Shown here: piece after piece, positions 3,901-41,717 of the stretch | How the letters are laid out: the number at the start of each line of letters is the position of its first letter | Position numbering within the stretch: position 1 is the first letter of the stretch | Source: Parcubacteria group bacterium | GTDB taxonomy: Bacteria > Patescibacteriota > Minisyncoccia > Phycocordibacterales > UBA2135 | NCBI GenBank assembly: GCA_016180525.1 | Contig: JACPBB010000002.1 | Coordinates: forward strand, 1-46,823 | Direction: 5' to 3' | Length of the DNA: 46,823 bases | Notes under the pieces: model-generated | The model's database searches: none | Told to the model about the DNA's origin: nothing | Seen by the model: the letters and a program-made list of their open reading frames with translations, nothing else | Translations under genes and position numbers: made by a program

Positions 3901-4585
3901 TGACTGCACCATCAGCGCTCGCGGTTAAGTTTACTTTCGTAAACGGAACCCGCGAAGCTCCTCCTGGAGCCAATGAATTTGATGGCTGTACCGAGTGTTT
4001 GCTTACCGTAAGACCGCTACCGATCGGCGTGACAACAACAGGTGCTGGAGCTCCCGGAGTTGCCGGAGTTGTTGCTACCGCCCCAGTTGAGCAGAGTGCG
4101 TTTGCTTTCACTCGGGATGACGCGCCGAAATATCCCGTTCCCGCGGAAAGTCCGACAGGGGTGAGAACTTCAGATGCGTATTTGTTCTGGAACTTTGCGA
4201 CAGCCGCTTTTGTTGCCGGACCAAATGTTGAGGTCTCATTTCCTGGAGAACCTGCTCCACTTGATGCAACAAGAGTTGCTGAATCAGAGTTCAAGAATTT
4301 TTGAAGCTTCATGACATCATCTCCTGTTGAGCCGGTCGTCAAGTTGCGAGACCATGTGTATGGACACGCGCTTGAGCCAGTCGCCGCGCCTCCCGAGAGA
4401 GTTGCGAGCTGTGCCTGAAGAGCAGAGATTGTCTGCAAGAGGCTCTGGATTTGTGCCGTGAGAGATTCAACGGTTTGTGCCGCTGCCGTGCTCGGAAGAG
4501 CGGTCGCGAAGACCATTCCCAAGAGCATGAGCGCAACAACAAAACCGACGATTTTGACAGTTTTAGAAGTAATAATGTTACTCAT
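977..4585 (-). CDS. Large secreted/anchored cell-surface protein: signal anchor, short coiled coil, PG_binding_1-like domain, then repeated beta-sandwich-like modules (S-layer/adhesin-like)
   Basis: ATG at 4585. N-terminal helix VGFVVALMLLGMVFATAL. ESLTAQIQSLLQTISALQAQLATL. PG-binding-type GSTGDDVMKLQKFLN...FGPATKAAVAKFQNKY. Remainder is T/S/G/A/V-rich with recurring module starts. Spot G+C 31/60 at 1021-1080. Confidence 0.8.
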   Translation of the reverse strand: MSNIITSKTVKIVGFVVALMLLGMVFATALPSTAAAQTVESLTAQIQSLLQTISALQAQLATLSGGAATGSSACPYTWSRNLTTGSTGDDVMKLQKFLNSDSATLVASSGAGSPGNETSTFGPATKAAVAKFQNKYASEVLTPVGLSAGTGYFGASSRVKANALCSTGAVATTPATPGAPAPVVVTPIGSGLTVSKHSVQPSNSLAPGGASRVPFTKVNLTASADGAVTVNSLVVERQGLAADTSFVGIVLMNEDGTLIGIEKTLNSNHQVTIGTDFVIPAGTTKTVIVGANMDTAANLGGESGEVPSLAVMSVNTSATVHGTFPITGATHTVNNSLAIGSISTVARGSLDPGADQTKEVGTTGYYFSGTKFTAGSAEDLTLKSIRWYQSGSATADDLAKVKTIVDGVEYDAVANGRYYTTIFPSNGIEIKKGFSKDISIRGDVIGGSNRTVDFDIERRTDVHIVGNLYGFGLTPPFGTNTTADSAAFKTTNNPYYDAAQVTVSNGTMNVSSWTAGVPAQNIAINLSDQPIAGFTFDVKGEPVSVSQLAFNFTLTDNAGTTIGLADLTNLIVVDSNGTVLAGPADGSGATDKSGSITLTDSITFPIGITNVILKAKLGTDFANNDTVVASTTPSSDFGTVTGQVTGNTITPAPASAVTGSTQTVKAGAFTVSVSAQPTARTVIAGASQFEFARYIFDVSQSGEDIRVTSIPLYFDTTGTRTDLTNCQLYDGAVSLTTGSNVKNPATADTASSTSLIFDGTGITLAKGTSKTLSLKCDIKSSVTALYWWGLDGAATFTAATGLTSGETIVETFNDANGQVMTAAANGAYTVTNDTSVLFKAVQAGTSDVTLAKYRFEASADESVDIKQIALALGNTASNTPNDFLNQKVSIWNGSTKVGEAQFGLGAGDNQDLATSTLSTPVRINAGDSVTLTVKGDLTGHDVNSAVGSFGAVVSVDYDGDNNGLNGNYATGVGSGVTISGSSGDTAANAVKVYRGLITVSDVTTATALAAGSDLYKIRLTAASGRDVTLRALSFNVSITGLAEISGIQLFGPGGAVNATGVSTSTSATGDAGAEKLRITFDDAAVDRIIQAGNSKDYVLRASTIATLTANNTETVAIKLFSDSAEPSGVQAGCFYDATAHMGCVSALENSASTTDRFIWSPNSTTTLTAAAASNNATDWTNSYGLPGFPTVGQDMQTRVFTH

Positions 4586-15674: not shown

Positions 15675-18134
15675 TTAGCGGGCACGGGCCTGCGTGACGC
15701 CGGAGCCGCCAAAAGGATTTTCCGCGAAGGCAGCAAAAATAAAGGTGTCTGAAGCGTTAAACTGTGTGTCAGAAGACCTTATCTTGAAGCCGTTGGACAG
15801 AAAATCAACGTGGTAATTCGTGCTGGTTGCCTCTGCATTGTCTAGGTCAGGCCACAATATTGTGTCCAAAGGATTATAAGTATCTCGCGCTACGTCTAAC
15901 AGACCCCAAGAACCAAGTGCGCCAGTGCGTTTGGTGATGATTATAGCAGGCCTGAATCCGCACCAAACGAAAGGGCCGTCAGCCGAGCCATTTCCAGTAT
16001 ATTTTCCTATTTTTGAAAACCCAGAAACTTCTGCGAAGCAATACATCACATAATTCTTTGTACTTTGGTTCACGCCCGCCCTAGTTCCAAGCGATACCAC
16101 ACTAGAGGAAGGGTCTGTGCTATTCCAGACATCTGATGCTGCGGAAACTTCTGCAGAATTGCTATGAAGATGTAAATTATAGGTATTATTTGTCATGTTC
16201 GTGTGAAAGACAAACCATCCTTCAAGCGCATCAGCACGCTGCTTCACTAATACGAATTTAGGGGCCGCACCAATCCCGTGTCCAACAGTTCCGTTAGCGC
16301 CAGTACCTGTATAAGTAACAATTGAAAATCCCGAAGTTGTGTTTGCGCTAACTGTTGAAGTAATTGAGCCGCTTGTGTTGCTTGAACCACTCCCATTACC
16401 CCTCCAACACCATGCAACGTTAGGGCTGTTCGCAGCATTGTAATTGCTGTCTGTTCCCAATGTGAATCCAGAAGAGTCAAAACTTTTAAGGCCCTCTGCT
16501 ACCGTTGATTCATTGTTTGCACTGTCTGAATTAAGTTCAAGGGTTGCGCCTCTTACACTATCAACCAAAACATGCTCAACTATTGTGTCTCTGTCTTTAA
16601 TCCATACAATGTCTGGCTGGAATGTTGAATTCCCCGAGAGCGTAATTGCGTTTTCAGCGCCGGTTCCCGTGAATATTTGCGCCTGGAAATGTTTACTTGG
16701 GTCTGTGACTGTAGGCGCTGGGAGATTTGCCGTATTAATGCGTTTAAAGCCTGTTGGGATTGTATGGACAAAAGCGCTTTGACCGAAATTCCATGTCCAC
16801 TTAGCGCCACTTTCAAGAAACATGCAGAAAAAATAAGACAATGTGGTTGAAAGAGTCGTATATGCGGCATTTGTGCCTACTGCTGGATCACCACTATTGA
16901 ACCATGTGCCATTTTTCCCCCACCAAATTTTTCCATTGTCCAAATCAACAGCAATCATCATCACGTCGTTGGTGGTAAAAGAACTGCCATAAGAAGCGCT
17001 TGAATTATTGTTGAGTTTGTTCCCGTCAGCCCATGTAAGCGCAAAATCTGTCGAGCGAAAACCCACACTGTTCTCAGTCGTGTCCCATAAATGGCTACTG
17101 TTTTCCTGGACAACACCTATGGCTCCACTTGAACCCGTTGTCGTAAAAGTTGTCTCGCAATACCACTTTCCACCAGGGCCGATTGCCCTTGAGGTCATAG
17201 GTCCCGCATGAGCTGCGGCTGGCGCATGAGTCACTACCAGCCCTCCATCAGAAATTGTAGCCGTGTTGTCTGCGTCTCCACCCCTCTGCAAAGAATCAAA
17301 TACCATGTAGTTTCCTACATTGTTCGCCGCGTCGTCAGTCGGACTATCAAGCATCTTGTCGTTTGCCGCAAGACCGCTCGGCGTGAAGTCATTGTTGTTT
17401 CCGCTGACGTCGTTGCCGAGGTCCGCGCTGTTGGCAAAGTCAAGATAAAAGCCGTTCGTGCCGTATGATCCTGTGTACTGCTTTGGTCTCCAGACTCCAT
17501 TACCGTCAAACTCACCGATGTCAGTCGGGCTTAAGGCAATACCATCTGTAAAAATAAACTCGGCCATATACATATCACAGAAAAAAGTTGAGCCGCTTGG
17601 TTCATTTCTCCATCGTCCAATAGATTGCGTTTTCCCTGACCTATTAAACCCTCCGATTTCTGTGTTTTGGCTTGGATAAGTCTCGGTGTCGAAGACGGTT
17701 ATTCTTGTACCGTTGTGATACACCCTCATTCTGTCTCCTTCCGTCGCGTTTGCGGAATCCCAAACAAAAAGAAGATGCCCCCAGGCACCAGGATCTCTAA
17801 AAACTTGTGTCGTAACTAACCTGCCGACTGTTGTAATACCAGTATCCCTTAATCCAATGTCTAATTTATGAGATGTATTTATACCTATCTCAGAAACAGT
17901 ATTTTGAGTAGAGTTTGCTGGCGCAGTTATAATATAATCTCCTGAACTCGGCGCCAAACTTGCTCTCTTGTACCAAATACTAAATGAAAAAAGTTTTAAA
18001 TTGCCGTCTGCCGAAGGAGATCGTGTCAGGTGCGCGCTGTCATCGTCGTTGAATCTCAAAGATTGCGAAATTGTGTAGCCATTGCTTCCGGCAGCGCCTA
18101 AAAGAGATCTAAACGACGTTCCAAGTGGAGACAT
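15675..18134 (-). CDS. LamG(ConA-like) + SPRY + 3x ~100-aa repeat protein, phage tail-fibre-like, no signal peptide
   Basis: LFSFSIWYKR, GHLLFVWDS, MRVYHNGT, MYMAEFIF (LamG-like). GKWYCETTF, VMMIAVDLDNGKIWWGKNG, WNFGQSAF (SPRY-like). Three repeats: IFTGTGAEN..IVWIKDRD, TYTGTGANG..FVLVKQRAD, KYTGNGSADG..IIITKRTG. Confidence 0.65.
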   Translation of the reverse strand: MSPLGTSFRSLLGAAGSNGYTISQSLRFNDDDSAHLTRSPSADGNLKLFSFSIWYKRASLAPSSGDYIITAPANSTQNTVSEIGINTSHKLDIGLRDTGITTVGRLVTTQVFRDPGAWGHLLFVWDSANATEGDRMRVYHNGTRITVFDTETYPSQNTEIGGFNRSGKTQSIGRWRNEPSGSTFFCDMYMAEFIFTDGIALSPTDIGEFDGNGVWRPKQYTGSYGTNGFYLDFANSADLGNDVSGNNNDFTPSGLAANDKMLDSPTDDAANNVGNYMVFDSLQRGGDADNTATISDGGLVVTHAPAAAHAGPMTSRAIGPGGKWYCETTFTTTGSSGAIGVVQENSSHLWDTTENSVGFRSTDFALTWADGNKLNNNSSASYGSSFTTNDVMMIAVDLDNGKIWWGKNGTWFNSGDPAVGTNAAYTTLSTTLSYFFCMFLESGAKWTWNFGQSAFVHTIPTGFKRINTANLPAPTVTDPSKHFQAQIFTGTGAENAITLSGNSTFQPDIVWIKDRDTIVEHVLVDSVRGATLELNSDSANNESTVAEGLKSFDSSGFTLGTDSNYNAANSPNVAWCWRGNGSGSSNTSGSITSTVSANTTSGFSIVTYTGTGANGTVGHGIGAAPKFVLVKQRADALEGWFVFHTNMTNNTYNLHLHSNSAEVSAASDVWNSTDPSSSVVSLGTRAGVNQSTKNYVMYCFAEVSGFSKIGKYTGNGSADGPFVWCGFRPAIIITKRTGALGSWGLLDVARDTYNPLDTILWPDLDNAEATSTNYHVDFLSNGFKIRSSDTQFNASDTFIFAAFAENPFGGSGVTQARAR

Positions 18135-20302: not shown

Positions 20303-21727
20303 CTATTTTCTTATAAATAATGGCTGCGGCATTTTGTTTTCTTTTATTGTTTCTTTAATTTTTATGTTTGCCTCAGGCATAAATGGAAAGAGCATCCGTC
20401 CTATCCAGTATAATTCTACCGCAAGTTCAAAAATAATCTTTTTCCCTGCCATAGGATTTTTTTTAACAAGCTTAAACGGCTCTTCTGTCGTTATTCGCTC
20501 ATCAAGTTTTTGCACGCGACTCCATATAAAATCCATTGCTCTATTAAATTCATACGATTCAATCGCATCTGTATATTCTTTTGGAAATGGCGCGGGCGCT
20601 GGAGACTCAATCGGATTTTTGAGGTTGTCTTCGGCAAGTTTCATAATGCGAGAAACTAGATTTCCTAAACCGTTCGCAAGATTCGCGTTATATGCCTCTT
20701 TGAATTTTTCCATTGTAAAATCAGAATCTTCAAATGAATGAATATGCCGCGCCAAATAATATCTAAGCGCGTCCGTGCCATATTCATTAACAATAGCGAC
20801 AGGATCAATGACATTGCCGAGACTTTTACTCATTTTCTGCCCGCCAACAGTAATAAACCCATGAATTACAATTTGTTTTGAGGGAGAGAGCCCTGCGGAG
20901 AAAAGCATTGCTGTCCACATGGCCGCCTGCTGTCTGATATTGTCTTTTCCCGCAAATTGAATAACCGGCCACCAGGTATTAAATTTTTTTAAATCATCCG
21001 GCCAGCCAATTGCAGAAATATAATTGACCAGCGCATCAAACCAAACATACATAACCTGCTCTTCGTCCCCTGGCACAGGAACACCCCAGGGCATTTTTTC
21101 TTTTCTTCGAGAAATACTAAAATTCTCAAGCCCGCGTTCTATAAATTTTTTTATTTCATTAAACCTAAAATTAGGAATTACAAACTGTGGATTTTTGCCG
21201 TAAAATTCTAACAGTTGTTTTTGGTATTTTGAAAATCTGAAAAAATAATTTTCCTCGTCTATTGTTTCAAGTTCCTGGTCAGGGTGAAGCGGGCAGCATC
21301 CTTTTTCGTTTAAATCAGAGTCCGTTTTTTCCAATTCGCATCCGACACAATATTTTATTTTGTAATTTTTCTTGTAAATATCTCCATTCTTATCACAAAG
21401 TTTCCAAAATTCCTGTGCTGCGTTTTTATGATGTTTATCCGTGGTTCTCACAAAGTTAATTCCGTCCCATAAATTAAGGGTTTTTTGCAGACTTCTGAAT
21501 TTCTCCGCGTATTCGTCAACATACTTTTGCGGACTTACGCCTCTCTCTTTCGCTTTCCGATAAATTTTAATGCCATGTTCATCAGTACCGGTATTAAAAA
21601 AAACCGCATCCCCTTTTAAGATGTGGTAGCGCGCGAGAATGTCGGCATGTACCGCTTCAAGCGCAAAACCAATATGCGGCTCCGCATTTACATACGGAAG
21701 CGTTGTGGTGATATATATGTGTTTCAT
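20303..21727 (-). CDS. metG: Methionine--tRNA ligase (short form, no C-terminal tRNA-binding domain)
   Basis: HIGH-type PHIGFA, KMSKS (QKMSKS), zinc knuckle CVGCE...CCPLH. Confidence 0.93.
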   Translation of the reverse strand: MKHIYITTTLPYVNAEPHIGFALEAVHADILARYHILKGDAVFFNTGTDEHGIKIYRKAKERGVSPQKYVDEYAEKFRSLQKTLNLWDGINFVRTTDKHHKNAAQEFWKLCDKNGDIYKKNYKIKYCVGCELEKTDSDLNEKGCCPLHPDQELETIDEENYFFRFSKYQKQLLEFYGKNPQFVIPNFRFNEIKKFIERGLENFSISRRKEKMPWGVPVPGDEEQVMYVWFDALVNYISAIGWPDDLKKFNTWWPVIQFAGKDNIRQQAAMWTAMLFSAGLSPSKQIVIHGFITVGGQKMSKSLGNVIDPVAIVNEYGTDALRYYLARHIHSFEDSDFTMEKFKEAYNANLANGLGNLVSRIMKLAEDNLKNPIESPAPAPFPKEYTDAIESYEFNRAMDFIWSRVQKLDERITTEEPFKLVKKNPMAGKKIIFELAVELYWIGRMLFPFMPEANIKIKETIKENKMPQPLFIRK

Positions 21728-22847: not shown

Positions 22848-24122
22848 TTATACCGCAAGTAAAGACAGGAGCTTTTTCCCGTCTTTTTTTGCATACGGCC
22901 CGATAAGAGCGATATTCCCTTTTTTTGTTTTTAAAATATTATTTGCAACGCGCCGTATGTCATTGGCTGAAACTTTTTGAATCAAAACCGCTCGTTCTTG
23001 GGGGGTTTTTAATTTTTTTTCTAAAACTTCGGTAAGACCGTAAAATTGAGCGCGCGCGTGAGATGTTTCAAGTCCGGAAAATAAATTGCCAATGAGATAA
23101 TTTTTAACTTTCTGCAATTCGACTTCAGAAACCGGATTATTTTTAATAATTTTTATTTCATCAATAATCGCGTGTAAAATTTCGGCGACCCGCTTGTTGT
23201 CAATGCCGGTGCTTACTGCAAAAAATCCATGGTCGGTAAGAAACTCTGCTTCGGCACTTATATAATACCCCGCGCCAAGCTGGTCGCGAATGCGGTGAAA
23301 CAAGCGTGAACTCATTCCCCCACCCAGAACTCCAGCAAGTACCGAGAGCGCCGCGCCGTCTTTATGATTTGCCCGATATGCCCTGAAGCCTACTATCACG
23401 TGTGTTTGGCTTGTTTTTTTATGTTTAATTAAAATACTGGGCTTTTTTTGAGTATCGCTTGTTTTCTTTTTAGAAGCTTTTTTTGAGTTTGGAATTTTCG
23501 CAAACATTACAGATACTTCTTTCGCCACTTCGTTTTCATCACAATTTCCTGCAATAATGACAACGGTTGAAGAGGCGACATAATTTCTTCGTTTATAATC
23601 TACAATATCTTTCCGCGTCATATTCCGTATTGTCTTTCGGGTACCCGCGATTGGCCAACCTGCCGGCTGATTGCCGTAGAGCAAGTCGGTGAACAGATCC
23701 CACACATCCCTCTGCGGAGAATCCTCATACATTTCAATCTCCCCAATGATAACGCCTCGTTCTTTTTCAATTTCTTCTTTGGGAAATGTGCCGTTGAGAT
23801 AAATATCAGAAACAACATCAAGCACTTTTTTAAAGTGTCGAGTTTCTGCCTTCGCGTAATATCCGGTATATTCGTATCCTGTAAATGCGTTATACGAGGC
23901 ACCAAGCCCATCTAATTCTTCTGAAATAGCTTTTGAAGTCGGGCGTTTTTCAGTGCCTTTAAAGCAGAGATGTTCCAAAAAATGCGAAACACCATTAATC
24001 CGTTTTGATTCATATTTTGAGCCGGTTTCAGTAAGCACCAAAACAGTCGTCGTTAAACTGTTCGGCATAGGCACAGTAATAAGCCGCACGCCATTTTTTA
24101 ATGTTTTCTTTTTAAATTTCAT
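22848..24122 (-). CDS. M16-family zinc peptidase (pitrilysin-like)
   Basis: HxxEH motif HFLEH near the N-terminus. 424 aa, two-lobed length. Confidence 0.85.
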   Translation of the reverse strand: MKFKKKTLKNGVRLITVPMPNSLTTTVLVLTETGSKYESKRINGVSHFLEHLCFKGTEKRPTSKAISEELDGLGASYNAFTGYEYTGYYAKAETRHFKKVLDVVSDIYLNGTFPKEEIEKERGVIIGEIEMYEDSPQRDVWDLFTDLLYGNQPAGWPIAGTRKTIRNMTRKDIVDYKRRNYVASSTVVIIAGNCDENEVAKEVSVMFAKIPNSKKASKKKTSDTQKKPSILIKHKKTSQTHVIVGFRAYRANHKDGAALSVLAGVLGGGMSSRLFHRIRDQLGAGYYISAEAEFLTDHGFFAVSTGIDNKRVAEILHAIIDEIKIIKNNPVSEVELQKVKNYLIGNLFSGLETSHARAQFYGLTEVLEKKLKTPQERAVLIQKVSANDIRRVANNILKTKKGNIALIGPYAKKDGKKLLSLLAV

Positions 24123-29475: not shown

Positions 29476-30774
29476 TTATTGTTCCTTGACGCTCATAGAC
29501 TGAACAGTTTCTAGGGCGGCAATAAATTGTGCGTCTTCCTCGGTTAACGTGTCTTCGGGAATCTTTCTTGTATCCTTAACCTCCTTTGTAGGAATTACTC
29601 CGATGTCCTGAATTTTCTGCTTTCCGTTTCCAACCAAAAATTCAAACGTGGTAAGTTTGAGCCCGACGCCGTTTGAGAGTTTGTAAACGGTCTGACCAAC
29701 CCCCTTTCCATAAGAGCGACTGCCGAGAACCGTAAATTTACCGTGAGCATTTCCCCAGTCCTGCATCGTGCCTGAAAACATCTCCGCGGCTGACGCGCTT
29801 CTGTTATTTACGAGTATGATTACCTTATAATCCTTAAACGCGCCAGGTTTTTTCTTTTCGCGTGTTTTTGGATATTCAAATGTTCCGGTTAAAGACTCTA
29901 TCGTCTTCTCATCCTCTTTTCTACGTTCACGCAAGGTCGTCACAATGTCTTTCGGGTTATCGCTAAAATAAAAAAGCATTTCAAGAGAAGAATATAAGGT
30001 GCCCCCGGGATTGTCGCGCATATCAACAATGACACGCGGAGTTTCTTTTTCGGTTTTACTAAATGAACGTAGTGCTTCTTCAAAGTCATCCGCAGTTTCT
30101 TCGTTGTGTCCGGTAACTTGCACGTAGCCAACGCCAGAATTAAGCTTTTGAAAGGAGACCGTTGAAAGTTTAATTTTTTCTCTCGTGACTGTAAGTGTGA
30201 GATTCTCTACGCCGCGCGCAATATGTATAAATACTACCGAGCCGACCTTTCCGTGCAATACGCTTACCGCATGCGATATATTTTGTATTTTAATTATTTG
30301 AGACGACTCGGCATTCTGAATGCTTACAATAACATCCCCCTTCTTCAGTCCCGCACGCTCAGCAGGGTTCCCCGACATGACGCTCTCAATAATTACCGCA
30401 TCGCTGTCGTTTTTAAGCAACGCGCCGATTCCACCGAAATTCCCTTCCATGCGCTCATTGAGTCTCGCCATTTCCCATTGCGAGTGAAATCTGGAATGCT
30501 GGTCAAGGCACGCAAATCGTTTTTGTTCCAGCGCTTCTAGTTCTTCGTCTGAAAAAGAATCAATTTCCTGATCTACGGAAATATTCCCGCTCGCCCTTAA
30601 AAACTCTTTCGTGATGATGGGCTTGCACTGCAGAAGACTGGCCCCCGACAAAGAATCATGCTCAAAAATTTCAAACGCTTGCTCTAGGGGGTCTTTCGTA
30701 TAAACGAGTAATATACCCAAAAAGACAAAGAAAAGAGCAAAAACCGGAATGCTGTATTTGACGAATCTCTTCAA
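29476..30774 (-). CDS. S41-family C-terminal processing peptidase with PDZ domain (paralogue 1, membrane-anchored)
   Basis: TTG is the only possible start (in-frame TAA at 30793; GGAG 6 nt upstream). PDZ NFGGIG...GLKKGDVIVSI. Catalytic Ser NNRSASAAEMF. Lys SYGKGVGQT. Confidence 0.85.
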   Translation of the reverse strand: MKRFVKYSIPVFALFFVFLGILLVYTKDPLEQAFEIFEHDSLSGASLLQCKPIITKEFLRASGNISVDQEIDSFSDEELEALEQKRFACLDQHSRFHSQWEMARLNERMEGNFGGIGALLKNDSDAVIIESVMSGNPAERAGLKKGDVIVSIQNAESSQIIKIQNISHAVSVLHGKVGSVVFIHIARGVENLTLTVTREKIKLSTVSFQKLNSGVGYVQVTGHNEETADDFEEALRSFSKTEKETPRVIVDMRDNPGGTLYSSLEMLFYFSDNPKDIVTTLRERRKEDEKTIESLTGTFEYPKTREKKKPGAFKDYKVIILVNNRSASAAEMFSGTMQDWGNAHGKFTVLGSRSYGKGVGQTVYKLSNGVGLKLTTFEFLVGNGKQKIQDIGVIPTKEVKDTRKIPEDTLTEEDAQFIAALETVQSMSVKEQ

Positions 30775-30980
30775 GAGACTCTCCGTGTCAAATTAACTAT
30801 TCTTTGAAAAGCCTAACACGATACCTTTCAAAAAGGAAGACGCCGCCATATTTTGACCACAATAGACCTGAAGTGTGTTTAAAAACTTCGCTCTGCCTTC
30901 ACCCCTCCTACTCCGCATCTTCACTTTTATGCACATTAAACTGGTCCCCTCACTTACCGTGAGAAATTGGGAAAAGAAAA

Positions 30981-30998
30981 AGCCGCCTAGAAGCGGCT
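30981..30998 (-). terminator. Terminator after the CPBP protease gene
   Basis: agccgc-ctagaa-gcggct, T-run on the minus strand. Confidence 0.55.
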
Positions 30999-31008
30999 CG
31001 TGGCATAA

Positions 31009-31752
31009 TTAAAAAATTAAAAAATAGATATATCTTTGGAAAAAGAAAACAAGATTGGCAACGCTGTGCATGACAATTGGAACAACTATTGAGTTTGTTC
31101 TAATTCTGGCAATACCAAAAAGAATTCCTAAGGCATATACTTCTAACAACAAAATTACTGAGTAAAAGTATTGCGTGTGAGCCACTGTAAAGATAAGGGA
31201 GGTAACCACAACCACAATGGTGATGCGCGTTTGTGAGGGCGCAATCCCTAGGTATCCTTTCAATAAAAATCCACGAATAAAAAATTCTTCAATAAGGGGA
31301 GCAATAAATACAGCCTGCGAAAATCTAATCCAAGATGGAATAAAGGATGCTGTGATCATTTCCTCTTGATAGGTGGCGCGAACGTCCTTTATCAATATAA
31401 GATTGAAAAAAAACATTCCGAGAGCAATGCATGCCGTTACACAGACCCAAAATAGCAAGGTACGTCCACTGGGGTTATATAAAGACGCGTACTCTCGTAA
31501 AGATATGTCCTTTTTCAGAGACATACAAAACAAGATTAAAACAATCCCTGTTAGCATAAACGCCAAATCAGACATAAACCCAACCTCATAGGCAAATAGT
31601 GCAGAATCAAAAAGAAAAGCTTTTGTAATGCCGTATGCAATTGAAGAAAATGTAAATATGAAGAACACAAAGACTGTCGTTGCAAAAATTCCCCATGGTC
31701 TTCCGTGGTGTGGAAACTCTGAAGCTTCCCTCGCGCCATCACTATGCACCAT
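31009..31752 (-). CDS. CPBP (CAAX/Abi) family intramembrane glutamic protease
   Basis: EEFFIRGF (EExxxR), FTVAH, MHSVANL motifs. Multi-pass. Confidence 0.8.
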   Translation of the reverse strand: MVHSDGAREASEFPHHGRPWGIFATTVFVFFIFTFSSIAYGITKAFLFDSALFAYEVGFMSDLAFMLTGIVLILFCMSLKKDISLREYASLYNPSGRTLLFWVCVTACIALGMFFFNLILIKDVRATYQEEMITASFIPSWIRFSQAVFIAPLIEEFFIRGFLLKGYLGIAPSQTRITIVVVVTSLIFTVAHTQYFYSVILLLEVYALGILFGIARIRTNSIVVPIVMHSVANLVFFFQRYIYFLIF

Positions 31753-31815
31753 TACAGAGCTTTAATTCCAAAAATCTTCTTTCCAAAGTAAATCAGATTG
31801 GATTCTGAAAGTCAA

Positions 31816-31840
31816 AAACGAGACGCAGTGCGTCTCGTTT
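31816..31840 (-). terminator. Terminator after S41 peptidase paralogue 2
   Basis: aaacgagacgc-agt-gcgtctcgttt, T-run on the minus strand. Confidence 0.7.
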
Positions 31841-31853
31841 GTCTTTCTACACT

Positions 31854-33131
31854 TTATTTCGCAGTTTCAGCAGGCGGAACATAATATTGGAGCGTTTCTT
31901 CTGCAAGCCAAAATTGTATATCTTTCTCGGTCAAAGTCTCTTCGGGCGAGCCTCTTAAATCTTTTACCTCAATTGTTGGAATAACGCCAATTTTGTGAAT
32001 ACCCTTTTTCTCATTTCCAACCAAAAATTCAAATGTCGTAAGCTGGAGACCCATTCCGCCTGAAAGCGTATAAATAGTTTGCCCGACACCCTTGCCATAT
32101 GAATGAGCCCCTAAAATAATAAATCTTCCGTGAGCACTGCCCCAATCCCGCATTGTGCCGGCAAAAATCTCAGCAGCTGAGGCGGTCCCTTCATTTATAA
32201 GCACTATTGCGACATAATCTTTAAACATTCCAGGCTTTTTCTTTTCTTGAGTCTTTGGGTATACGAATCCATCCCTCATAGACCCAACCGTTATAACGTC
32301 TTCTGCTGTTCGGTCGCGTATCGTCACTATAATATCTTCGGGCTTTTCACTGAAATAAAAAAGCATTTCAATCGGTGAAAATAAATTACCACCAGGATTG
32401 TCGCGCATATCAATGATTACACGTGGAGCATCTTCCCCGTTTCCGATCGCACGCAACGCGATTTCAAAATCATCCGCGGTTTCTTCATTGTGTCCGGTAA
32501 CTTGCACATAACCAACGCCAGAGGAAAGTTTTTTAAAAGCAACTGTTGAAAGTTTAATTTTCTCCCTCGTAACAGAAAAAGTAAGCTGTGCTTCACCTCG
32601 CATAACGGTAATCAATATTGAACTTCCCGCCTCGCCTCGTAATATGTCAAGTGCGTCGGAAAAATTCTTTATTTCAAGAACAGGCGAAGATTCATTTTGC
32701 CGAACACTTTGAATAATGTCTCCTGCCTTAATGCCCGCCGTGTCTGCCGGCTTCCCGGCAACAACGCCATCAACAATAACTTTCCCGTCATTTTCTGCAA
32801 CAGTAACTCCGATTCCACCGAAGTTCCCTTCAGTTACCTCTGCCATTCTGTGCATCTCTATTTCAGAGAGAAACGACGAGTGTTCATCGAGGCACGCAAG
32901 CCGTTTTTCCCAATCTGCAATGGGCTCTCCTGTGGATTGCAGAGATTCATTTGCTTCTTTGAATTCTTCAAGAATTGTACTCTTACATAATTCAATATTG
33001 GGCTGTAAAAGAGAGTACTTTTCAATGAGCTCAAGCACCTCTTTCTCGGCACCAGGATCCGCGTACACAAGAGTCGGGGCGCATATGAGAAAAAACAAAA
33101 CAAGCGCGACATACTGGACAGTTTTTTTCAT
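31854..33131 (-). CDS. S41-family C-terminal processing peptidase with PDZ domain (paralogue 2, cleavable-type signal peptide)
   Basis: Signal MKKTVQYVALVLFFLICAPTLVYA. PDZ NFGGIG...GIKAGDIIQSV. Ser NEGTASAAEIF. Lys SYGKGVGQT. Confidence 0.85.
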   Translation of the reverse strand: MKKTVQYVALVLFFLICAPTLVYADPGAEKEVLELIEKYSLLQPNIELCKSTILEEFKEANESLQSTGEPIADWEKRLACLDEHSSFLSEIEMHRMAEVTEGNFGGIGVTVAENDGKVIVDGVVAGKPADTAGIKAGDIIQSVRQNESSPVLEIKNFSDALDILRGEAGSSILITVMRGEAQLTFSVTREKIKLSTVAFKKLSSGVGYVQVTGHNEETADDFEIALRAIGNGEDAPRVIIDMRDNPGGNLFSPIEMLFYFSEKPEDIIVTIRDRTAEDVITVGSMRDGFVYPKTQEKKKPGMFKDYVAIVLINEGTASAAEIFAGTMRDWGSAHGRFIILGAHSYGKGVGQTIYTLSGGMGLQLTTFEFLVGNEKKGIHKIGVIPTIEVKDLRGSPEETLTEKDIQFWLAEETLQYYVPPAETAK

Positions 33132-33188
33132 AATAACAGCATCCTTTTCAACTTCTTCTTATAGCGTACCACGGCGGCATAAGAAAAA

Positions 33189-33213
33189 AGCCTGCGCGAC
33201 ATGCGTGCAAGCT
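33189..33213 (-). terminator. Terminator closing the MotA-like three-gene operon
   Basis: agcctgcgcg-acatg-cgtgcaagct (10-bp stem, 1 mismatch, 1 G-U), followed by TTTTTT on the minus strand. Confidence 0.6.
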
Positions 33214-33252
33214 TTGGTCAACTCCAATAGTAATGGAGTTAATTTTTATATT

Positions 33253-33786
33253 TTATAGTTTTTCTGGTGGTGGTCCTAAACGTTCAAAAGTTCGCGGACT
33301 TTGAGCGGGCGGCTCTTTGAGCGGAGCTGCCGGCTGAGGAAGCGGATAGAATAGCTGATCGAGGGTATCCAGGCTTCGTTTATATTCAAACGGACTTTTC
33401 ATCATGAGACCGCTCTTATTTCGTTGCGCCTGCCGCATGGCCTCTTGCAATCGCTCTGCCATGGGCCTATTCCACGGTAGAACATAGTACCGAGGTTCCG
33501 GCACTCCGCGCAACTGCAGCCAGAGATAAATACCCTTCCCTTCTTTTATAACCACTCCGAGAACCGCGGCGTCTTTCGCAGAACGATGCACCCATTCAAG
33601 GTGAACCGGTTTTGGACGGCTTAACAAGTCCATAAGAGCTGCGTATCCAGACGCCACAAACAAAACAGTCAAAATAATTGCGGCAGATTTTACCCAAAAC
33701 CTTCGCGGAGACCAGACAGCAATAGCCGCAAGCCCAACTGCAATGCCGATAAAGATAAGGCTATATTGTGTGAGCGCTTCCATCAT
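33253..33786 (-). CDS. Two-TM membrane protein with soluble domain and Pro-rich C-terminal tail (gene C of the MotA-like operon)
   Basis: Helices LIFIGIAVGLAAIAVW and AAIILTVLFVASGYAALM. Tail YPLPQPAAPLKEPPAQSPRTFERLGPPPEKL. AGGAGGG SD. Confidence 0.7.
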   Translation of the reverse strand: MMEALTQYSLIFIGIAVGLAAIAVWSPRRFWVKSAAIILTVLFVASGYAALMDLLSRPKPVHLEWVHRSAKDAAVLGVVIKEGKGIYLWLQLRGVPEPRYYVLPWNRPMAERLQEAMRQAQRNKSGLMMKSPFEYKRSLDTLDQLFYPLPQPAAPLKEPPAQSPRTFERLGPPPEKL

Positions 33787-33846
33787 GGCACTACCCTCCT
33801 TTCGGTTTCGGTTTCGGTTAGGGCATGTTGCATGCGTTTTTTTTCG

Positions 33847-34491
33847 TTAGTTTGGCTCGTCGCCACGAGAATTTCCCATCATGGGTGAGCGAAGTTTTTT
33901 GGTTAAACTGTGAACACTGCTGTCAATTAATGTGCCTTCGGGCGTAAGCGAGAATCGAAACGCGGTAATTTCTTCACCGGTTTCATGTAACTCTACGGTT
34001 GTTTTAAGAATTTGCTTGGTCCTTGCCTCTTTAGAAGACTTCAGGCTTAAAACGACAATGACGGGAACAGGATACGTGTTCGCGCCGTTTCTGAATAAGT
34101 GCACATTCACCGTATACTCTCCGGGAACAATCCCTCGGGTATACGCGGTTTCATAATTAATATTCGTTGCATCCCCTTGGTGTCCCAAATCATCTCGCAG
34201 AAGATTAAAGAGCACTCCGCCCTGGTTTGAATACCCAACGGGCACGTCACCAGGAGCTTCAACCCATAAATCAACATCAATATCAAGACTATCCGGCCAT
34301 GTGATTTCAACAATAACGTTTCCCGGAGGAACAATGTCGTCCTTGGCCTGCTTCGCGGGTGGATTAATGTGCGGCAACAGTAGAATGACCATTGCCACAA
34401 ACCCCAAAAGTGCGAGGGTAATCATGTCCCGCATCAACATGCCAGTCCCACCGTCATTGTCAAACCAACGATCGTTTCTCATTCTTGACAT
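33847..34491 (-). CDS. Single-pass protein with ExbD/TolR/MotB-like Asp-bearing TM helix and a non-canonical ~170-aa extracytoplasmic domain (gene B)
   Basis: MRDMITLALLGFVAMVILLL (Asp22), then VIVEITWPDSLDIDVDLWVEAPGD...PGEYTVNVHLF. Starts 3 nt after gene A, with GGAGGA SD. Confidence 0.6.
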   Translation of the reverse strand: MSRMRNDRWFDNDGGTGMLMRDMITLALLGFVAMVILLLPHINPPAKQAKDDIVPPGNVIVEITWPDSLDIDVDLWVEAPGDVPVGYSNQGGVLFNLLRDDLGHQGDATNINYETAYTRGIVPGEYTVNVHLFRNGANTYPVPVIVVLSLKSSKEARTKQILKTTVELHETGEEITAFRFSLTPEGTLIDSSVHSLTKKLRSPMMGNSRGDEPN

Positions 34492-34494
34492 TGT

Positions 34495-35244
34495 TTATTC
34501 CTCCAACTCTCTGCGGGTTTTTTCTTGAATTTCGCCAAACTCTCCAAGCAAATTAACAAAGTCGCTCCCGCCAACACGCAATATATGGAGGTTTGTCTCA
34601 AGCCAAATGCCGCCAAAAATGCCGCCAGCAAGAGTCGTATAGAGCGCAACGCCCATGCCGTTTACGAGTGTCGCGACCATTGTTCCAATAGAATTCGTAT
34701 CGCCCACAAGACCTGGATTTATTCCAGAGAGCACCATGACAAACCCCACAACCGTTCCCAAAAATCCAAGGAGCACAAGTACCGCGCTTAAACGCCCGAT
34801 GATTGCAAGACGGCTAAACCATTTATCTTCAAGAATATGGTGCAAATTCGCGCGGGTTCCGCTGTCCGCTCCACGAATCGCGTTTAAATATTCCGCGACG
34901 CGAGAAAACCGCGGAGGATTTTCTTCTTTCAGGTAATTAATTTCGCGACTTGTTACAAACACCTTTTTAATGGAGATAAAAAGACCAAAAGCAAACACCA
35001 ATGTCATTACCAAAATATAGGTAGTGAGGGCATCAAATGTGAGGAGTGTCTTAAGCCACGAAACATCTGCCTTTTTTCCAAAGAGCTTATCTACCCACCC
35101 TTCAAATATTCCTAGGGTAAAGAGTGTGATAAAAAGAAGATTACAGATAATAAATTTCAGCCAGAGAAAGTATGAATATCGTTCCGAGTCCTTCTTGTCC
35201 AGAACATCAAACGCGGCACGAGCCATTGTTGCGGTCCTTTTCAT
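34495..35244 (-). CDS. MotA/TolQ/ExbB-family ion channel protein (gene A)
   Basis: Four helices. LLGFLGTVVGF and GMGVALYTTLAGGIFG in the last two. Track ORF starts at TTG 35247. ATGs at 35244 and 35226. Confidence 0.7.
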   Translation of the reverse strand: MKRTATMARAAFDVLDKKDSERYSYFLWLKFIICNLLFITLFTLGIFEGWVDKLFGKKADVSWLKTLLTFDALTTYILVMTLVFAFGLFISIKKVFVTSREINYLKEENPPRFSRVAEYLNAIRGADSGTRANLHHILEDKWFSRLAIIGRLSAVLVLLGFLGTVVGFVMVLSGINPGLVGDTNSIGTMVATLVNGMGVALYTTLAGGIFGGIWLETNLHILRVGGSDFVNLLGEFGEIQEKTRRELEE

Positions 35245-35418
35245 CAAAACAGACTTCTTACCTATTCTTATAGAAAAACTGATAGTGTGTCAATAGGACA
35301 CCATAAAAAAATCTTTTTTGCTTTTTCCTGCGCGCAAAGCTCGGCTAACGCTTGACTTCAGGGGTAAAATATACTTCTATATAAAAAGAGGGTTTTGAAA
35401 ACAAAACGGAGTATTCGT

Positions 35419-36507
35419 ATGAAACATTTCCGATTAGTTGTTGCGTCTTTCGCTGTCTTTATACTTCTTGCAGGTCCGACATTGGCAAAAGAGCCGCCAC
35501 TTAGTTTTTCTTCGGTTGTTAAAAGGGTATCTTCTGCTGTGATAAGCATTGAGACAACAAGGACGGTAACGGAAGAAAACCCGGAGCCGCAAAATCAACA
35601 GGACATGCTTCCCCCTGGTTCTCCGTTAAGAAAATTGTTTCCTAAACCAAAAAAGCAAGAGGTGCAAAAAAGGAAAGTAGTGTCAGTCGGCGCTGGATCT
35701 GTAATTAGTCCTGATGGATATATCGTTACGAATAATCATGTGGTGCGGGGGGCGGATAGTATAGAAATTATATTTTCTGATGATACCCATACTCCTGCAA
35801 AAATAATCGGGCAAGATGCAAAGACTGATATCGCTGTTTTAAAAATTGACTCTCCCAAACCTCTCGCCCACCTTGTGTTTGGTAATTCTGAATCAGTTGA
35901 GGTCGGGGACTGGGTTATTGCCGTTGGAAACCCGTTTAATTTGCGTAATACGGTAAGCGTCGGAATTATTTCGGCAAAACACAGAAAAATACCCGATATG
36001 CTTGCTCATTATCTCCAAACGGACACATCAATTAACCAGGGCAATTCAGGCGGACCGCTTTTTAATCTCACTGGAGAGGTTATCGGTATAAACACCGCAA
36101 TCTTTTCACTAACAGGCGGAAGTATTGGAATTGGATTCGCACTTCCTTCAAATGAGACAAGACATGTAGTTGACGAACTGCGTACGCACGGCAAATTGAG
36201 ACAAGTGTGGTTCGGCGTAAGACCCGCTGACATTACCGAGGAACATTCGCCTTCTATAAGAACGTATAAAGATAATGGGGTTTTAATAACCGAAGTAACT
36301 ATCGGAAGCCCCGCGCATGGAGGGGGACTCAAAAACTCGGATATTGTTGTCTCTTTTAATGAGAAGCGAATAAAAACAGTTGATGACTTAAAGTCAGCCT
36401 TGCTGTTTGCCCGAATTGGCAGCAACGCGAAAGTGCGCGTGGTGCGGAACGGAAGAAATGTGGAACTTTCAATCCTCATCAAAGAAAAGCCCGAGACAAG
36501 CAATTAA
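35419..36507 (+). CDS. htrA: HtrA/DegP-family serine protease with one PDZ domain
   Basis: ATG 35419 with GGAG 7 nt upstream (track ORF starts at TTG 35395). Signal peptide. TNNHVV, DIAVLKI, GNSGGPLF. Confidence 0.88.
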   Translation: MKHFRLVVASFAVFILLAGPTLAKEPPLSFSSVVKRVSSAVISIETTRTVTEENPEPQNQQDMLPPGSPLRKLFPKPKKQEVQKRKVVSVGAGSVISPDGYIVTNNHVVRGADSIEIIFSDDTHTPAKIIGQDAKTDIAVLKIDSPKPLAHLVFGNSESVEVGDWVIAVGNPFNLRNTVSVGIISAKHRKIPDMLAHYLQTDTSINQGNSGGPLFNLTGEVIGINTAIFSLTGGSIGIGFALPSNETRHVVDELRTHGKLRQVWFGVRPADITEEHSPSIRTYKDNGVLITEVTIGSPAHGGGLKNSDIVVSFNEKRIKTVDDLKSALLFARIGSNAKVRVVRNGRNVELSILIKEKPETSN

Positions 36508-41249: not shown

Positions 41250-41717
41250 TTAGAGTAACGTTCCTGTTGTTTTTTGTTTATTCTCCCCCTTGTCCATCGC
41301 CTTATTCGCAAGCTCGTCGGCTTTTTTGTTTTTCTCACGCGGAATGTGCGTGAGAGTAAGATTCGGAATGTCTGAGACGCGCATGTTCCATACTTTTATA
41401 AACTGCGGAAAAAGCGATTCTTCTTTTATTTGATATTTTCCGCTTAACTGTCTCGCCACAAGCTCGCTGTCTGTCTTCACCTCCACTTCCATTTCTTTTA
41501 ATTTTTCTTTTCCAAATATTTTTTTGACGGCTTGAAGACCGAGGATAATCGCCTGATACTCTGCCCAGTTATTCGTCCGCACACCCAGAAACTCCGAAAT
41601 CTCTTTCAACACATTCCCTTTTTCGTCGGCTATCACCGCGCCGGCTCCCGCGATTCCAGGGTTGTTTCGTGACCCACCGTCTGTATAAATTATAATTTTC
41701 CTTAATTCTTGATTCAT
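41250..41717 (-). CDS. rnhA: Ribonuclease HI
   Basis: IYTDGGSRNNPG, NNWAEYQAII, TDSELV, NKKADELAN. Confidence 0.88.
   Translation of the reverse strand: MNQELRKIIIYTDGGSRNNPGIAGAGAVIADEKGNVLKEISEFLGVRTNNWAEYQAIILGLQAVKKIFGKEKLKEMEVEVKTDSELVARQLSGKYQIKEESLFPQFIKVWNMRVSDIPNLTLTHIPREKNKKADELANKAMDKGENKQKTTGTLL

What the first reader, a model, noticed from the sequence alone, without database searches (positions are those of the whole stretch)
33189..35247. Orphan MotA/ExbB-like channel + Asp-bearing single-pass partner with a non-canonical output domain + Pro-tailed membrane protein: candidate new ion-driven stator-type module
Seen in sequence:
- Three co-oriented minus-strand genes: A 34495..35244 (250 aa), B 33847..34491 (214 aa) and C 33253..33786 (177 aa). 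B starts 3 nt after A, with a GGAGGA SD inside the end of A.
- The unit is closed by a hairpin plus T-run (33189..33213) and diverges from htrA.
- A has four hydrophobic helices. The last two carry LLGFLGTVVGF and GMGVALYTTLAGG, the MotA/TolQ/ExbB channel pattern.
- B has one helix, MRDMITLALLGFVAMVILLL, with Asp22 at its cytoplasmic end.
- What follows in B is neither an ExbD-type periplasmic domain nor an OmpA/PG-binding domain. It is a ~170-aa domain beginning VIVEITWPDSLDIDVDLWVEAPGD...PGEYTVNVHLF. It looks like a beta-sandwich and reminds me of the DUF2135/YfaP-type motif (unverified).
- C has two helices, a ~90-aa soluble part and a Pro-rich tail (YPLPQPAAPLKEPPAQSP...GPPPEKL). It resembles TonB/TolA in style only.
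- No flagellar, gliding, TonB-dependent receptor or Tol-Pal genes occur in the window.
- Spot G+C counts are 36/60 at 33301-33360 and at 34621-34680, against 20/60 at 20401-20460 in metG.

Established: Asp22 of B sits at the position of the essential protonatable Asp of TolR (D23), ExbD (D25) and MotB (D32).

Inference: the backbone looks CPR-like, and such cells are generally considered monoderm. I read the trio as a self-contained 5:2-type stator with a novel output domain. It may be horizontally acquired, and it may be functionally tied to the surrounding protease genes.
Basis: partly seen in the sequence, partly recalled or inferred. Interest (0 to 1): 0.8.

Follow-up and report, generated by a model that had tools for sequence, protein, structure and literature searches.

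The report
Unnamed proton-motor gene trio, also phage-borne
Three adjacent genes encode what looks like a small proton-driven membrane motor of an undescribed family, conserved across Alphaproteobacteria and also carried in miniature by phages, where a periplasmic protease gene often sits next to it.

Summary
The three minus-strand genes are real and form one operon-like unit.

- **A** (250 aa) passes Pfam's MotA_ExbB cut-off. It keeps the two channel threonines of ExbB and TolQ.
- **B** (214 aa) has one membrane helix. Its Asp22 aligns with TolR D23, ExbD D25 and MotB D32 and is conserved in nearly all relatives examined. Its periplasmic beta-sandwich is neither ExbD-like nor OmpA-like. It resembles E. 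coli YfaP (DUF2135) only remotely.
- **C** (177 aa) has two membrane helices, a small domain and a conserved Pro-rich tail. It has no TonB or TolA features.

No Pfam, NCBIfam, PADLOC or PHROG family covers B or C, and I found no paper describing the trio.

The order A-B-C recurs with unrelated flanks in alphaproteobacterial MAGs and in cultured Azospirillum brasilense. It therefore looks like a resident, conserved alphaproteobacterial module. The CPR, monoderm and recent-transfer inferences are not supported.

Rhizobium phage 16-3 (p038, p040, p042), other rhizobiophages and 32 IMG/VR contigs carry miniaturised versions, with A of about 140 aa. In 14 of 39 phage loci an HtrA-like serine protease gene lies directly upstream of A. 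The window also has htrA next to A.

Best reading: a new family of 5:2-type proton motor with a periplasmic output, possibly coupled to periplasmic proteolysis.

The parts
34495..35247 (-). Gene A: 4-TM MotA/TolQ/ExbB-family channel subunit (250 aa). Start uncertain: TTG 35247, ATG 35244 or ATG 35226.
   Evidence: The ORF is. Pfam MotA_ExbB scores 28 bits against a cut-off of 22.9 over residues 141-212. hhalign to E. coli ExbB TM2-TM3 gives 59% probability and places T165 and T205 at ExbB T148 and T181. Family alignment A5 has G161, G164, T165, T204 and T205 invariant.
33847..34491 (-). Gene B: single-pass partner (214 aa). Short cytoplasmic N-terminus, membrane helix with Asp22, Pro-rich linker, then a beta-sandwich of about 145 aa with a nearly invariant acidic cluster.
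   Evidence: The ORF is. Asp22 aligns with TolR D23, ExbD D25 and MotB D32. It is invariant in alignments A1, A2 and A7 and present in at least 90% of the diverse A4 set. The AF2 model shows helix 16-42 plus nine strands (mean pLDDT 70). There is no ExbD or OmpA Pfam hit. hhalign to YfaP gives E=3.9e-4.
33253..33786 (-). Gene C: 2-TM membrane protein (177 aa) with a small beta-beta-beta-alpha-beta domain and a conserved FYxxPQPAxPxK tail.
   Evidence: The ORF is and alignment A3. The AF2 model has mean pLDDT 82.6. No PDB fold match reaches E<1e-3. There is no similarity to TolA.
34499..34504 (-). GGAGGA ribosome-binding site for B, overlapping A's last codons. A's stop and B's start are 3 nt apart.
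   Evidence: Sequence.
33795..33800 (-). AGGAGG ribosome-binding site for C.
   Evidence: Sequence.
33181..33242 (-). Two hairpins after C. The second is followed by a U-run and is a likely intrinsic terminator closing the unit.
   Evidence: Sequence and fold (-23.8 kcal/mol, z = -5.2).
35264..35293 (-). Sigma-70-like promoter candidate (TTGACA-18-AAGAAT, 10 of 12 matches) upstream of A, in the divergent htrA-A intergenic region.
   Evidence: This is a consensus match only.
35395..36507 (+). htrA-type periplasmic serine protease (Trypsin_2 plus one PDZ), divergent neighbour of A and a possible functional partner.
   Evidence: Pfam. It is 29-32% identical over about 280 aa to the HtrA-like genes that sit immediately upstream of A in viral contigs L035, L038 and L042.

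Best explanation
The trio encodes a self-contained, proton-motive-force-driven inner-membrane motor of the MotA/ExbB '5:2' kind. It belongs to a family that has not been described.

A would form the channel ring. A dimer of B would sit in it through its membrane helix, whose Asp22 is protonated and deprotonated as ions pass. This would turn or pull B's periplasmic beta-sandwich. C, anchored by a helical hairpin, puts a small domain and a conserved Pro-rich tail into the periplasm. It would act as the third, coupling or targeting subunit. That makes it functionally analogous to TonB or TolA, not homologous to them.

The module is a conserved resident of Alphaproteobacteria. Phages have captured it in a stripped-down form, in which A is reduced to its four helices. 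In phages it is frequently coupled to a periplasmic HtrA-type serine protease. The work done is therefore most likely on periplasmic or envelope proteins, in concert with that protease.

**Shown:** family membership of A; the conserved Asp and threonines; the novelty of B and C; conservation of A-B-C order; phage copies; protease synteny.

**Inferred:** 5:2 assembly; rotation; periplasmic location of C's domain (positive-inside rule); any coupling to proteolysis.
For: - **A is in the family.** It passes the Pfam MotA_ExbB cut-off. It aligns to ExbB and TolQ TM2-TM3 with both channel threonines in register, and these are invariant in its family.
- **The Asp is conserved.** B's Asp22 aligns with TolR D23, ExbD D25 and MotB D32. 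It is invariant in A1, A2 and A7, which include all 7 phage copies, and present in at least 90% of the diverse A4 set.
- **The genes are coupled.** They are tightly packed here and overlap in relatives.
- **The order is conserved with changing flanks.** A-B-C recurs in Geminicoccaceae and other alphaproteobacterial MAGs, in Azospirillum brasilense Sp7 and in one Burkholderiales-labelled MAG.
- **The family is large and uniform.** B's family has 1780 representative clusters at 50% identity, all about 190-215 aa.
- **Phage 16-3 carries the whole module.** p040 matches B (hhalign 100%, E=1e-45). p042 matches C (96.7%). p038 matches A (94.3%).
- **The phage A proteins are in the family too.** The 141-148 aa proteins upstream of B in five other rhizobiophages hit Pfam MotA_ExbB.
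- **Viral contigs.** 32 IMG/VR loci carry the module, within genuine phage contexts.
- **Protease synteny.** A protease gene lies directly upstream of A in 11 of 32 IMG/VR loci and 3 of 7 cultured phages. It is of two architectures. htrA adjoins A in the window lineage.
- **Precedent.** TolQ-like rings partnered by non-ExbD 'transpore-helix' proteins have been described (PMC12204202).
Against: - No multimer model or experiment was possible, so stoichiometry and rotation are by analogy only.
- A's Pfam score is modest and covers only the last two helices.
- The B model is mediocre. Mean pLDDT is 70, and the most conserved loop (residues 98-119) is below 50. Foldseek gives no significant hit for B or C.
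- In most bacterial loci no protease is adjacent.
- In the window lineage the htrA adjacency comes with conservation of all other flanks, so there it carries little weight.
- Many protease-linked phage loci are related 16-3-like phages and are not independent observations.
- One phage-like contig (L018) has B-C with no recognisable A nearby.
Confidence: 0.6

Rival explanations
1. It is an ordinary, diverged Ton or Tol paralogue (ExbB-ExbD-TonB or TolQ-TolR-TolA) that energises an outer-membrane transporter or Pal-like tether encoded elsewhere.
For: - The three-gene layout is the same.
- A aligns best to ExbB and TolQ.
- The Asp is in register.
- C has a Pro-rich stretch.
Against: - B has no ExbD domain in Pfam at E<=1. 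hhalign to ExbD and MotB covers only the helix.
- C has two helices, no His or SHLS-type motif, no TonB_C or TolA domain, and no similarity to TolA.
- B's linker is only about 15 residues, too short to reach the outer membrane.
- No TonB-dependent receptor or Pal gene lies next to any of more than 45 loci.
Confidence: 0.07
2. It is an anti-phage or superinfection-exclusion module of the Zorya type. A membrane motor senses or blocks incoming phage at the envelope, and the periplasmic protease is the effector.
For: - A's helices give weak ZorA hits in PADLOC (E=4.4e-7) and NCBIfam.
- The module lies in the accessory region between immX and attP/int of temperate phage 16-3.
- It also sits beside attL in RHph_TM3_3_14B.
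- A protease is co-encoded in many phages.
Against: - Bacterial copies are strongly conserved (B is 55-65% identical to the window copy across the alphaproteobacterial lineages sampled). In the loci examined the trio is a single unit with housekeeping-type flanks that show no phage hallmark genes. That is unlike patchy defence islands.
- A lacks the long ZorA tail.
- There are no ZorC, ZorD or ZorE-type effectors, and B and C give no PADLOC hit.
- Large Rhizobium phages of 154-171 kb (RHph_I46, RHph_I1_18) and the gp32/UvsX-bearing contig L018 carry the module among DNA-metabolism genes.
Confidence: 0.13
3. In phages it is a lysis or envelope-remodelling accessory. In bacteria it is an envelope-maintenance device acting on peptidoglycan or on outer-membrane tethering, not on proteins. 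B's acidic beta-sandwich would be a Ca2+- or glycan-binding module.
For: - A lysozyme or endolysin gene lies 1-5 kb upstream in RHph_X2_25, RHph_TM3_3_14B and L032.
- The Azospirillum locus is next to an amidase-like ORF and a putative periplasmic ORF, by my reading of the translations; these were not profile-tested.
- B has an invariant D/E/N cluster. Weak fold hits are to Ca2+-binding beta-sandwiches (2lge, PAD, Tk-SP C-domain).
Against: - The fold hits are non-significant (best E=0.07).
- In the large Rhizobium phages RHph_I46 and RHph_I1_18 the module sits among replication genes.
- No lysis gene is consistently adjacent.
- There is no peptidoglycan-binding domain in Pfam.
Confidence: 0.15

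Closest known systems
ExbB-ExbD-TonB (Ton) and TolQ-TolR-TolA (Tol) motors
   Same: - A is a MotA_ExbB family member whose last two helices align to ExbB and TolQ with the channel threonines conserved.
- The partner has a membrane-helix Asp in register with ExbD D25 and TolR D23.
- A third membrane-anchored gene carries a Pro-rich segment.
- The three genes form an operon.
   Different: - A has an extra N-terminal helix (four in all) and only a cytoplasmic loop of about 50 aa. In phages it has none.
- B's periplasmic part is a beta-sandwich of about 145 aa, not the ExbD/TolR fold.
- C has a two-helix hairpin, no His motif and no TonB or TolA C-terminal domain.
- There is no outer-membrane partner in any neighbourhood.
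MotAB / PomAB flagellar stators
   Same: Four-helix topology of A. The Asp sits at the cytoplasmic end of B's helix (MotB D32). One relative of B even gives a weak MotB_plug hit (E=0.0087).
   Different: - hhalign of A to E. coli MotA is nil.
- A has no large cytoplasmic torque-generating loop.
- B has no OmpA-like peptidoglycan-binding domain.
- No flagellar genes are nearby.
TolQ-like rings with 'transpore-helix' vWA partners (Williams-Jones et al. 2025, PMC12204202)
   Same: The concept is the same. A TolQ-like subunit is paired with a non-ExbD protein that supplies an Asp-bearing helix and carries a different periplasmic output domain.
   Different: The output here is a YfaP/DUF2135-like beta-sandwich, not vWA. 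A dedicated third subunit (C) is always present. The family is also phage-borne.
E. coli YfaP / Pfam DUF2135
   Same: B residues 58-139 align with YfaP 142-217. They share W..DxDL.V..P.....Y.N...D.D...E...G.Y.V (hhalign E=3.9e-4). Three of 58 relatives hit Pfam DUF2135, best E=1.3e-4.
   Different: The window protein scores 12.8 bits against a cut-off of 22. hhalign probability is only 35%. YfaP is a secreted protein of the alpha-2-macroglobulin (yfaS) operon and has no motor partner. The function of DUF2135 is itself unknown.
Zorya ZorAB
   Same: A MotA/ExbB-type ring with a non-flagellar role that is linked to phage biology. A gives weak ZorA hits over the helices.
   Different: A has no long ZorA tail. 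B has no ZorB-type peptidoglycan-binding domain. There are no ZorC, ZorD or ZorE genes. Conservation in bacteria looks like that of a housekeeping gene set.

Membership tests
MotA/TolQ/ExbB proton channel family (Pfam PF01618), for A | Profile match above the curated cut-off | tested here: met
   28.0 bits against a cut-off of 22.9, residues 141-212. Azospirillum A scores 34.6 bits and the phage A proteins 22.5-26.8 bits.
MotA/TolQ/ExbB proton channel family (Pfam PF01618), for A | Conserved polar (Thr) residues on the last two helices lining the channel (ExbB T148/T181, TolQ T145/T178) | tested here: met
   hhalign puts T165 and T205 at these positions. They are invariant in A5. In some phage copies the first is Asn.
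MotA/TolQ/ExbB proton channel family (Pfam PF01618), for A | Adjacent gene for a single-pass partner with a conserved Asp in its membrane helix | tested here: met
   B follows 3 nt downstream. Asp22 is in register with TolR, ExbD and MotB and is invariant or nearly so.
MotA/TolQ/ExbB proton channel family (Pfam PF01618), for A | Pentamer around a dimer (5:2) and ion-driven rotation | not testable with these tools
   No multimer prediction or experiment was available.
ExbD/TolR family (Pfam PF02472), for B | ExbD/TolR periplasmic domain | tested here: not met
   No Pfam hit at E<=1. hhalign to E. coli ExbD covers 20 residues of the helix only, probability 1.6%. The AF2 model is an all-beta sandwich.
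MotB / OmpA-like stator partner, for B | C-terminal OmpA-like peptidoglycan-binding domain | tested here: not met
   No OmpA hit. hhalign to MotB covers 27 helix residues only.
TonB / TolA force transducers, for C | Single N-terminal helix with the conserved His (SHLS-type) motif | tested here: not met
   C has two helices. No His lies in either helix, and none is conserved in A3.
TonB / TolA force transducers, for C | C-terminal TonB_C or TolA domain III | tested here: not met
   No Pfam hit. hhalign to TolA gives probability 0.8%. No Foldseek hit reaches E<1e-3.
DUF2135 / YfaP-like domain, for B's periplasmic part | Profile match above the curated cut-off, or significant profile-profile match | tested here: inconclusive
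   The window protein scores 12.8 bits against 22. Three of 58 relatives match, best E=1.3e-4. hhalign to YfaP gives E=3.9e-4 but 35% probability, with the invariant motif residues shared.
Zorya (ZorAB plus effectors) | Long C-terminal ZorA tail and adjacent ZorC, ZorD or ZorE effector genes | tested here: not met
   A is 250 aa, and the PADLOC and NCBIfam ZorA hits cover only residues 147-217. B and C give no PADLOC hit. The neighbours are proteases and transporters.

The most novel reading that the evidence does not exclude
The trio, together with an HtrA-type protease, forms a proton-motive-force-powered periplasmic proteolysis or extraction machine. In the ATP-free periplasm a 5:2 motor would do the job that AAA+ unfoldases do in the cytoplasm. 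It would pull or present envelope proteins, through B's beta-sandwich and C's Pro-rich tail, to a serine protease. Phages would carry a miniature P-A-B-C cassette to remodel the host envelope proteome, for example by removing receptors or incoming phage proteins.
Probability: 0.22. Interest if true: 0.92.

Novelty: new variant of a known kind. Interest (0 to 1): 0.74.

Why it matters
Known 5:2 ion-driven motors (MotAB, ExbBD, TolQR, GldLM, ZorAB) each opened a field. This would add a family whose two non-channel subunits have no described relatives.

- It is conserved across many alphaproteobacterial lineages.
- It is present in a genetically tractable organism (Azospirillum brasilense Sp7) and in a classic temperate phage (16-3), so it can be tested directly.
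- The phage versions contain what may be among the smallest MotA/ExbB-type subunits (about 138-148 aa, four helices and almost nothing else). That would be useful for defining the minimal motor.
- The recurrent, tightly packed or overlapping HtrA-type protease gene raises the testable idea that proton-motive force is coupled to periplasmic proteolysis.
- It also gives a first functional context for the DUF2135/YfaP-like fold.

Tried and rejected
**Searches that returned nothing useful**
- Foldseek of the B and C models against PDB, and of B against BFVD. No hit reached E<1e-3. The B model is only moderate, so this is weak negative evidence.
- Sequence search of A and of the B profile against PDB. 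This gave nothing for B and only marginal MotA and ZorA hits for A.
- PHROGs for all bacterial and phage A, B and C proteins. No family matched.
- NCBIfam and PADLOC for B and C. Nothing matched.
- Rfam and tRNA scans of the window. Nothing found.
- Literature searches on DUF2135, YfaP, new 5:2 families, 'transpore helix', phage 16-3, and phage-encoded ExbB/TolQ/MotA or HtrA. No description of this trio turned up.

**Searches that fell short**
An alignment query would have reached further.
- The search for homologous proteins on A found only 13 relatives because this lineage's A is divergent.

**Readings rejected**
- Horizontal acquisition.
- A CPR-like, monoderm backbone.
- A functional tie to the two S41 peptidases. 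They are adjacent only in this lineage, where the whole neighbourhood is syntenic.
Full report
**1.

The three co-oriented minus-strand ORFs exist as described.

| Gene | Coordinates | Length |
|---|---|---|
| A | 34495..35247 | 250 aa |
| B | 33847..34491 | 214 aa |
| C | 33253..33786 | 177 aa |

- A is read from a TTG.
- B's ATG lies 3 nt after A's TAA. GGAGGA (34504-34499) overlaps A's last codons.
- C has its own AGGAGG.
- Two hairpins follow C. The second runs into UUUUUUCUU (-23.8 kcal/mol, z = -5.2).
- A 10-of-12 sigma-70-like site sits upstream of A, in the 147-bp region shared with the divergent htrA.
- The quoted peptide motifs are all present. Hydropathy resolves three helices in A, one in B and two in C. 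A's fourth helix, which carries GMGVALYTTLAGG, falls below the cut-off and is assigned from the motif and alignment.
- The G+C remark is true but unremarkable. The trio's G+C is 0.44-0.50 and its GC3 0.45-0.47. Other genes of the window average 0.43 (sd 0.027) and 0.40 (sd 0.035), and several housekeeping genes are as high.

**2. What the three proteins are**

*A.*
- A passes Pfam's MotA_ExbB cut-off, at 28 bits against 22.9.
- A profile of its family aligns to TM2-TM3 of E. coli ExbB (59% probability) and TolQ. It does not align to MotA.
- In that alignment T165 and T205 fall on ExbB T148/T181 and TolQ T145/T178. From my knowledge of the Ton and Tol literature these are the channel-lining threonines.
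- Both are invariant in the family alignment, within LGxxGTVxGF and GMxxALYTTLxG.
- A has four helices like MotA, but its cytoplasmic loop is only about 50 residues.

*B.*
- B has a short cytoplasmic N-terminus, one helix, a Pro-rich linker of about 15 residues and then an all-beta domain. The AF2 model has mean pLDDT 70.
- Asp22 aligns with TolR D23, ExbD D25 and MotB D32. It is invariant in alignments A1, A2 and A7 and present in at least 90% of 58 diverse relatives.
- Beyond the helix there is no similarity to ExbD, TolR or MotB.
- The periplasmic domain carries a set of invariant residues: W65, D72, D74, W76, G86, R99, D100, D101, G103, E114 and N129.
- It has no significant PDB or BFVD fold match and no PDB sequence match.
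The window protein scores below threshold (E=0.13). Three of 58 relatives reach E down to 1.3e-4. hhalign to E. coli YfaP gives E=3.9e-4 (35% probability) with the invariant motif shared.

*C.*
- C has a two-helix hairpin. The positively charged loop WSPRRxxVK suggests both termini are periplasmic. This is an inference from the positive-inside rule.
- Next come a conserved LLSRPKP junction, a small beta-beta-beta-alpha-beta domain (mean pLDDT 82.6) and a conserved FYxxPQPAxPxK tail.
- It matches no Pfam family, no PDB fold and not TolA.

**3. Distribution in bacteria**

- B has more than 4200 relatives at 90% clustering. All are unnamed 'hypothetical proteins' without Pfam domains. The 120 best listed are 59-66% identical to the window protein.
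- A full HMMER scan finds 1780 clusters at 50% identity, uniformly about 190-215 aa.
- Named sources are Alphaproteobacteria (Geminicoccaceae, Rhodospirillales), with one Burkholderiales-labelled MAG.
- The order A-B-C, usually with overlapping genes, recurs with unrelated flanks in every bacterial locus examined.
- It is also present in cultured Azospirillum: seven chromids, including A. brasilense Sp7.
- Close relatives of the window organism keep the same extended synteny: sodB, BT1, htrA, then A-B-C, S41, MBL, DUF11, proS.
- The trio is therefore an old resident of this lineage, not a recent import. The backbone is alphaproteobacterial, not CPR-like.

**4.

- A distant B relative sits in a phage-like contig (gp32, a UvsX-like gene, RNR, ThyX) followed by a C homologue, with hhalign 97.7%.
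- tblastn against cultured phages finds 15 rhizobiophage records.
- In temperate Rhizobium phage 16-3 the region between immX and attP/int reads as follows:

| Gene | Identity | Evidence |
|---|---|---|
| p036 | trypsin-like periplasmic protease | annotation, Pfam |
| p037 | small protein | not analysed |
| p038 | 138-aa, four-helix A homologue | hhalign 94.3% |
| p039 | unassigned | none |
| p040 | B homologue with Asp-bearing helix | hhalign 100%, E=1e-45 |
| p041 | small hydrophobic protein | none |
| p042 | C homologue | hhalign 96.7% |

- Five other rhizobiophages encode a 141-148 aa protein just upstream of B that hits Pfam MotA_ExbB at 22.5-26.8 bits. These include phages of 154-171 kb.
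- A scan of IMG/VR found 32 further viral loci. Local HMM mapping shows A-B-C in most. Where my A profile failed, a four-helix protein of 136-155 aa with the family's RHIAN motif still precedes B.
- Flanking genes of four of these contigs are phage genes: endolysin, DNA transfer protein, tail fibre and repair exonuclease.
- The helix Asp and the acidic cluster of B are invariant in all seven aligned phage copies.

**5. The protease link**

- A trypsin/HtrA-like gene lies directly upstream of A, often overlapping it. This holds in 3 of 7 cultured-phage loci and 11 of 32 IMG/VR loci. A fourth cultured phage has one 2 kb downstream.
- Two architectures occur. One is short, about 220-300 aa, without PDZ (the 16-3 group). 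The other is full-length HtrA-like, about 360-377 aa, and 29-32% identical to the window's HtrA.
- The window lineage has htrA divergently adjacent to A.
- Most bacterial loci do not have a protease next to the trio. Many of the phage loci are related to each other. I therefore treat this as a recurrent but not universal association.
- The S41 peptidases downstream have no such support.

**6. Mechanism**

The best-supported reading is a proton-driven 5:2-type motor.
- A forms the ring.
- B forms the Asp-bearing axle, and its periplasmic beta-sandwich is the moving output.
- C is a dedicated third subunit.

B's short linker keeps its domain near the inner membrane, so the partner is probably C or a periplasmic protein, not the outer membrane. 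The phage A proteins have essentially no cytoplasmic part, which also argues for a periplasmic output. Assembly, rotation and the target are all inferred.

The protease synteny suggests that the work is done on envelope proteins. The boldest version is a PMF-powered substitute for an unfoldase in the ATP-free periplasm, and I rate it at about 0.2.

The rivals each have some support and specific counter-evidence, set out in the Rival explanations section. They are a diverged Ton/Tol paralogue, a Zorya-like defence or exclusion module, and a lysis or peptidoglycan-directed device.

**7. Comparison and novelty**

- A is a member of the MotA/TolQ/ExbB family.
- B and C fail the defining domain tests for ExbD/TolR, MotB, TonB and TolA.
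- The closest conceptual precedent is the TolQ-like plus 'transpore-helix vWA' pairing of Williams-Jones et al. 2025 (PMC12204202).
- I found no description of this trio in Pfam, NCBIfam, PADLOC, PHROGs or the literature held here.
- I class it as a new variant of a known kind. Because tractable hosts exist (A. brasilense Sp7, phage 16-3), it can be tested directly.

Noticed in passing
window 29476-33131 and 35395-36507: Protease-rich neighbourhood. Two paralogous S41 (Ctp-type, PDZ-containing) peptidases (29476-30774 and 31854-33131) flank an Rce1-like CPBP intramembrane protease (31009-31752). HtrA lies on the other side of the trio and an M16 peptidase at 22848-24122.
   Followed up: partly
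window 33787-33846: The 60-nt B-C spacer contains (CGAAAC)x3 and a small GCATGCAACATGC hairpin after an A-run. In most relatives B and C overlap instead, so this spacer is specific to this lineage.
   Followed up: no
window 977-4585 (-): A 1202-aa ORF with no Pfam hit at E<=1e-5, sitting in the most G+C-rich stretch of the window (0.45-0.50).
   Followed up: no
window 15675-18134 (-): An 819-aa protein combining a SPRY domain with DUF7483 (E=3e-116). SPRY domains are uncommon in bacteria.
   Followed up: no
L002 1-7600 (Alphaproteobacteria MAG CBDFML010000012.1): Tandem paralogous copies of the module within 7.5 kb: A-B-C, then a further B and A, then A-B-C again.
   Followed up: partly
Azospirillum chromids, e.g. 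NZ_CP012915.1 (L017 6175-8118): Each of seven Azospirillum chromids has two places matching B. Only the best was inspected. It lies beside an amidase-like ORF and a putative periplasmic ORF; these are my readings of the translations and were not profile-tested.
   Followed up: partly
L022 5463-6005 and L023 4120-4878 (Rhizobium phages RHph_X2_25 and RHph_TM3_3_14B): Homing endonuclease genes (HNH, Seg-like) are inserted between genes of the phage protease-A-B-C cassette without removing any member.
   Followed up: no
L018 6998-9154 (JGI metagenome contig Ga0213465_1379206): A phage-like contig carries B and C directly after thyX, with no recognisable A within 8 kb. Either A is elsewhere or B-C can use a host ring.
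   Followed up: partly
L021 7724-9157 (Rhizobium phage RHph_I1_18): A von Willebrand factor A protein is encoded about 2 kb downstream of the phage A-B-C module. This recalls the TolQ-like/vWA pairings reported in PMC12204202.
   Followed up: no
window 41250-41717 (-): A stand-alone RNase H / RVT_3-type protein sits next to recJ. The same pair is conserved in relative L016.
   Followed up: no
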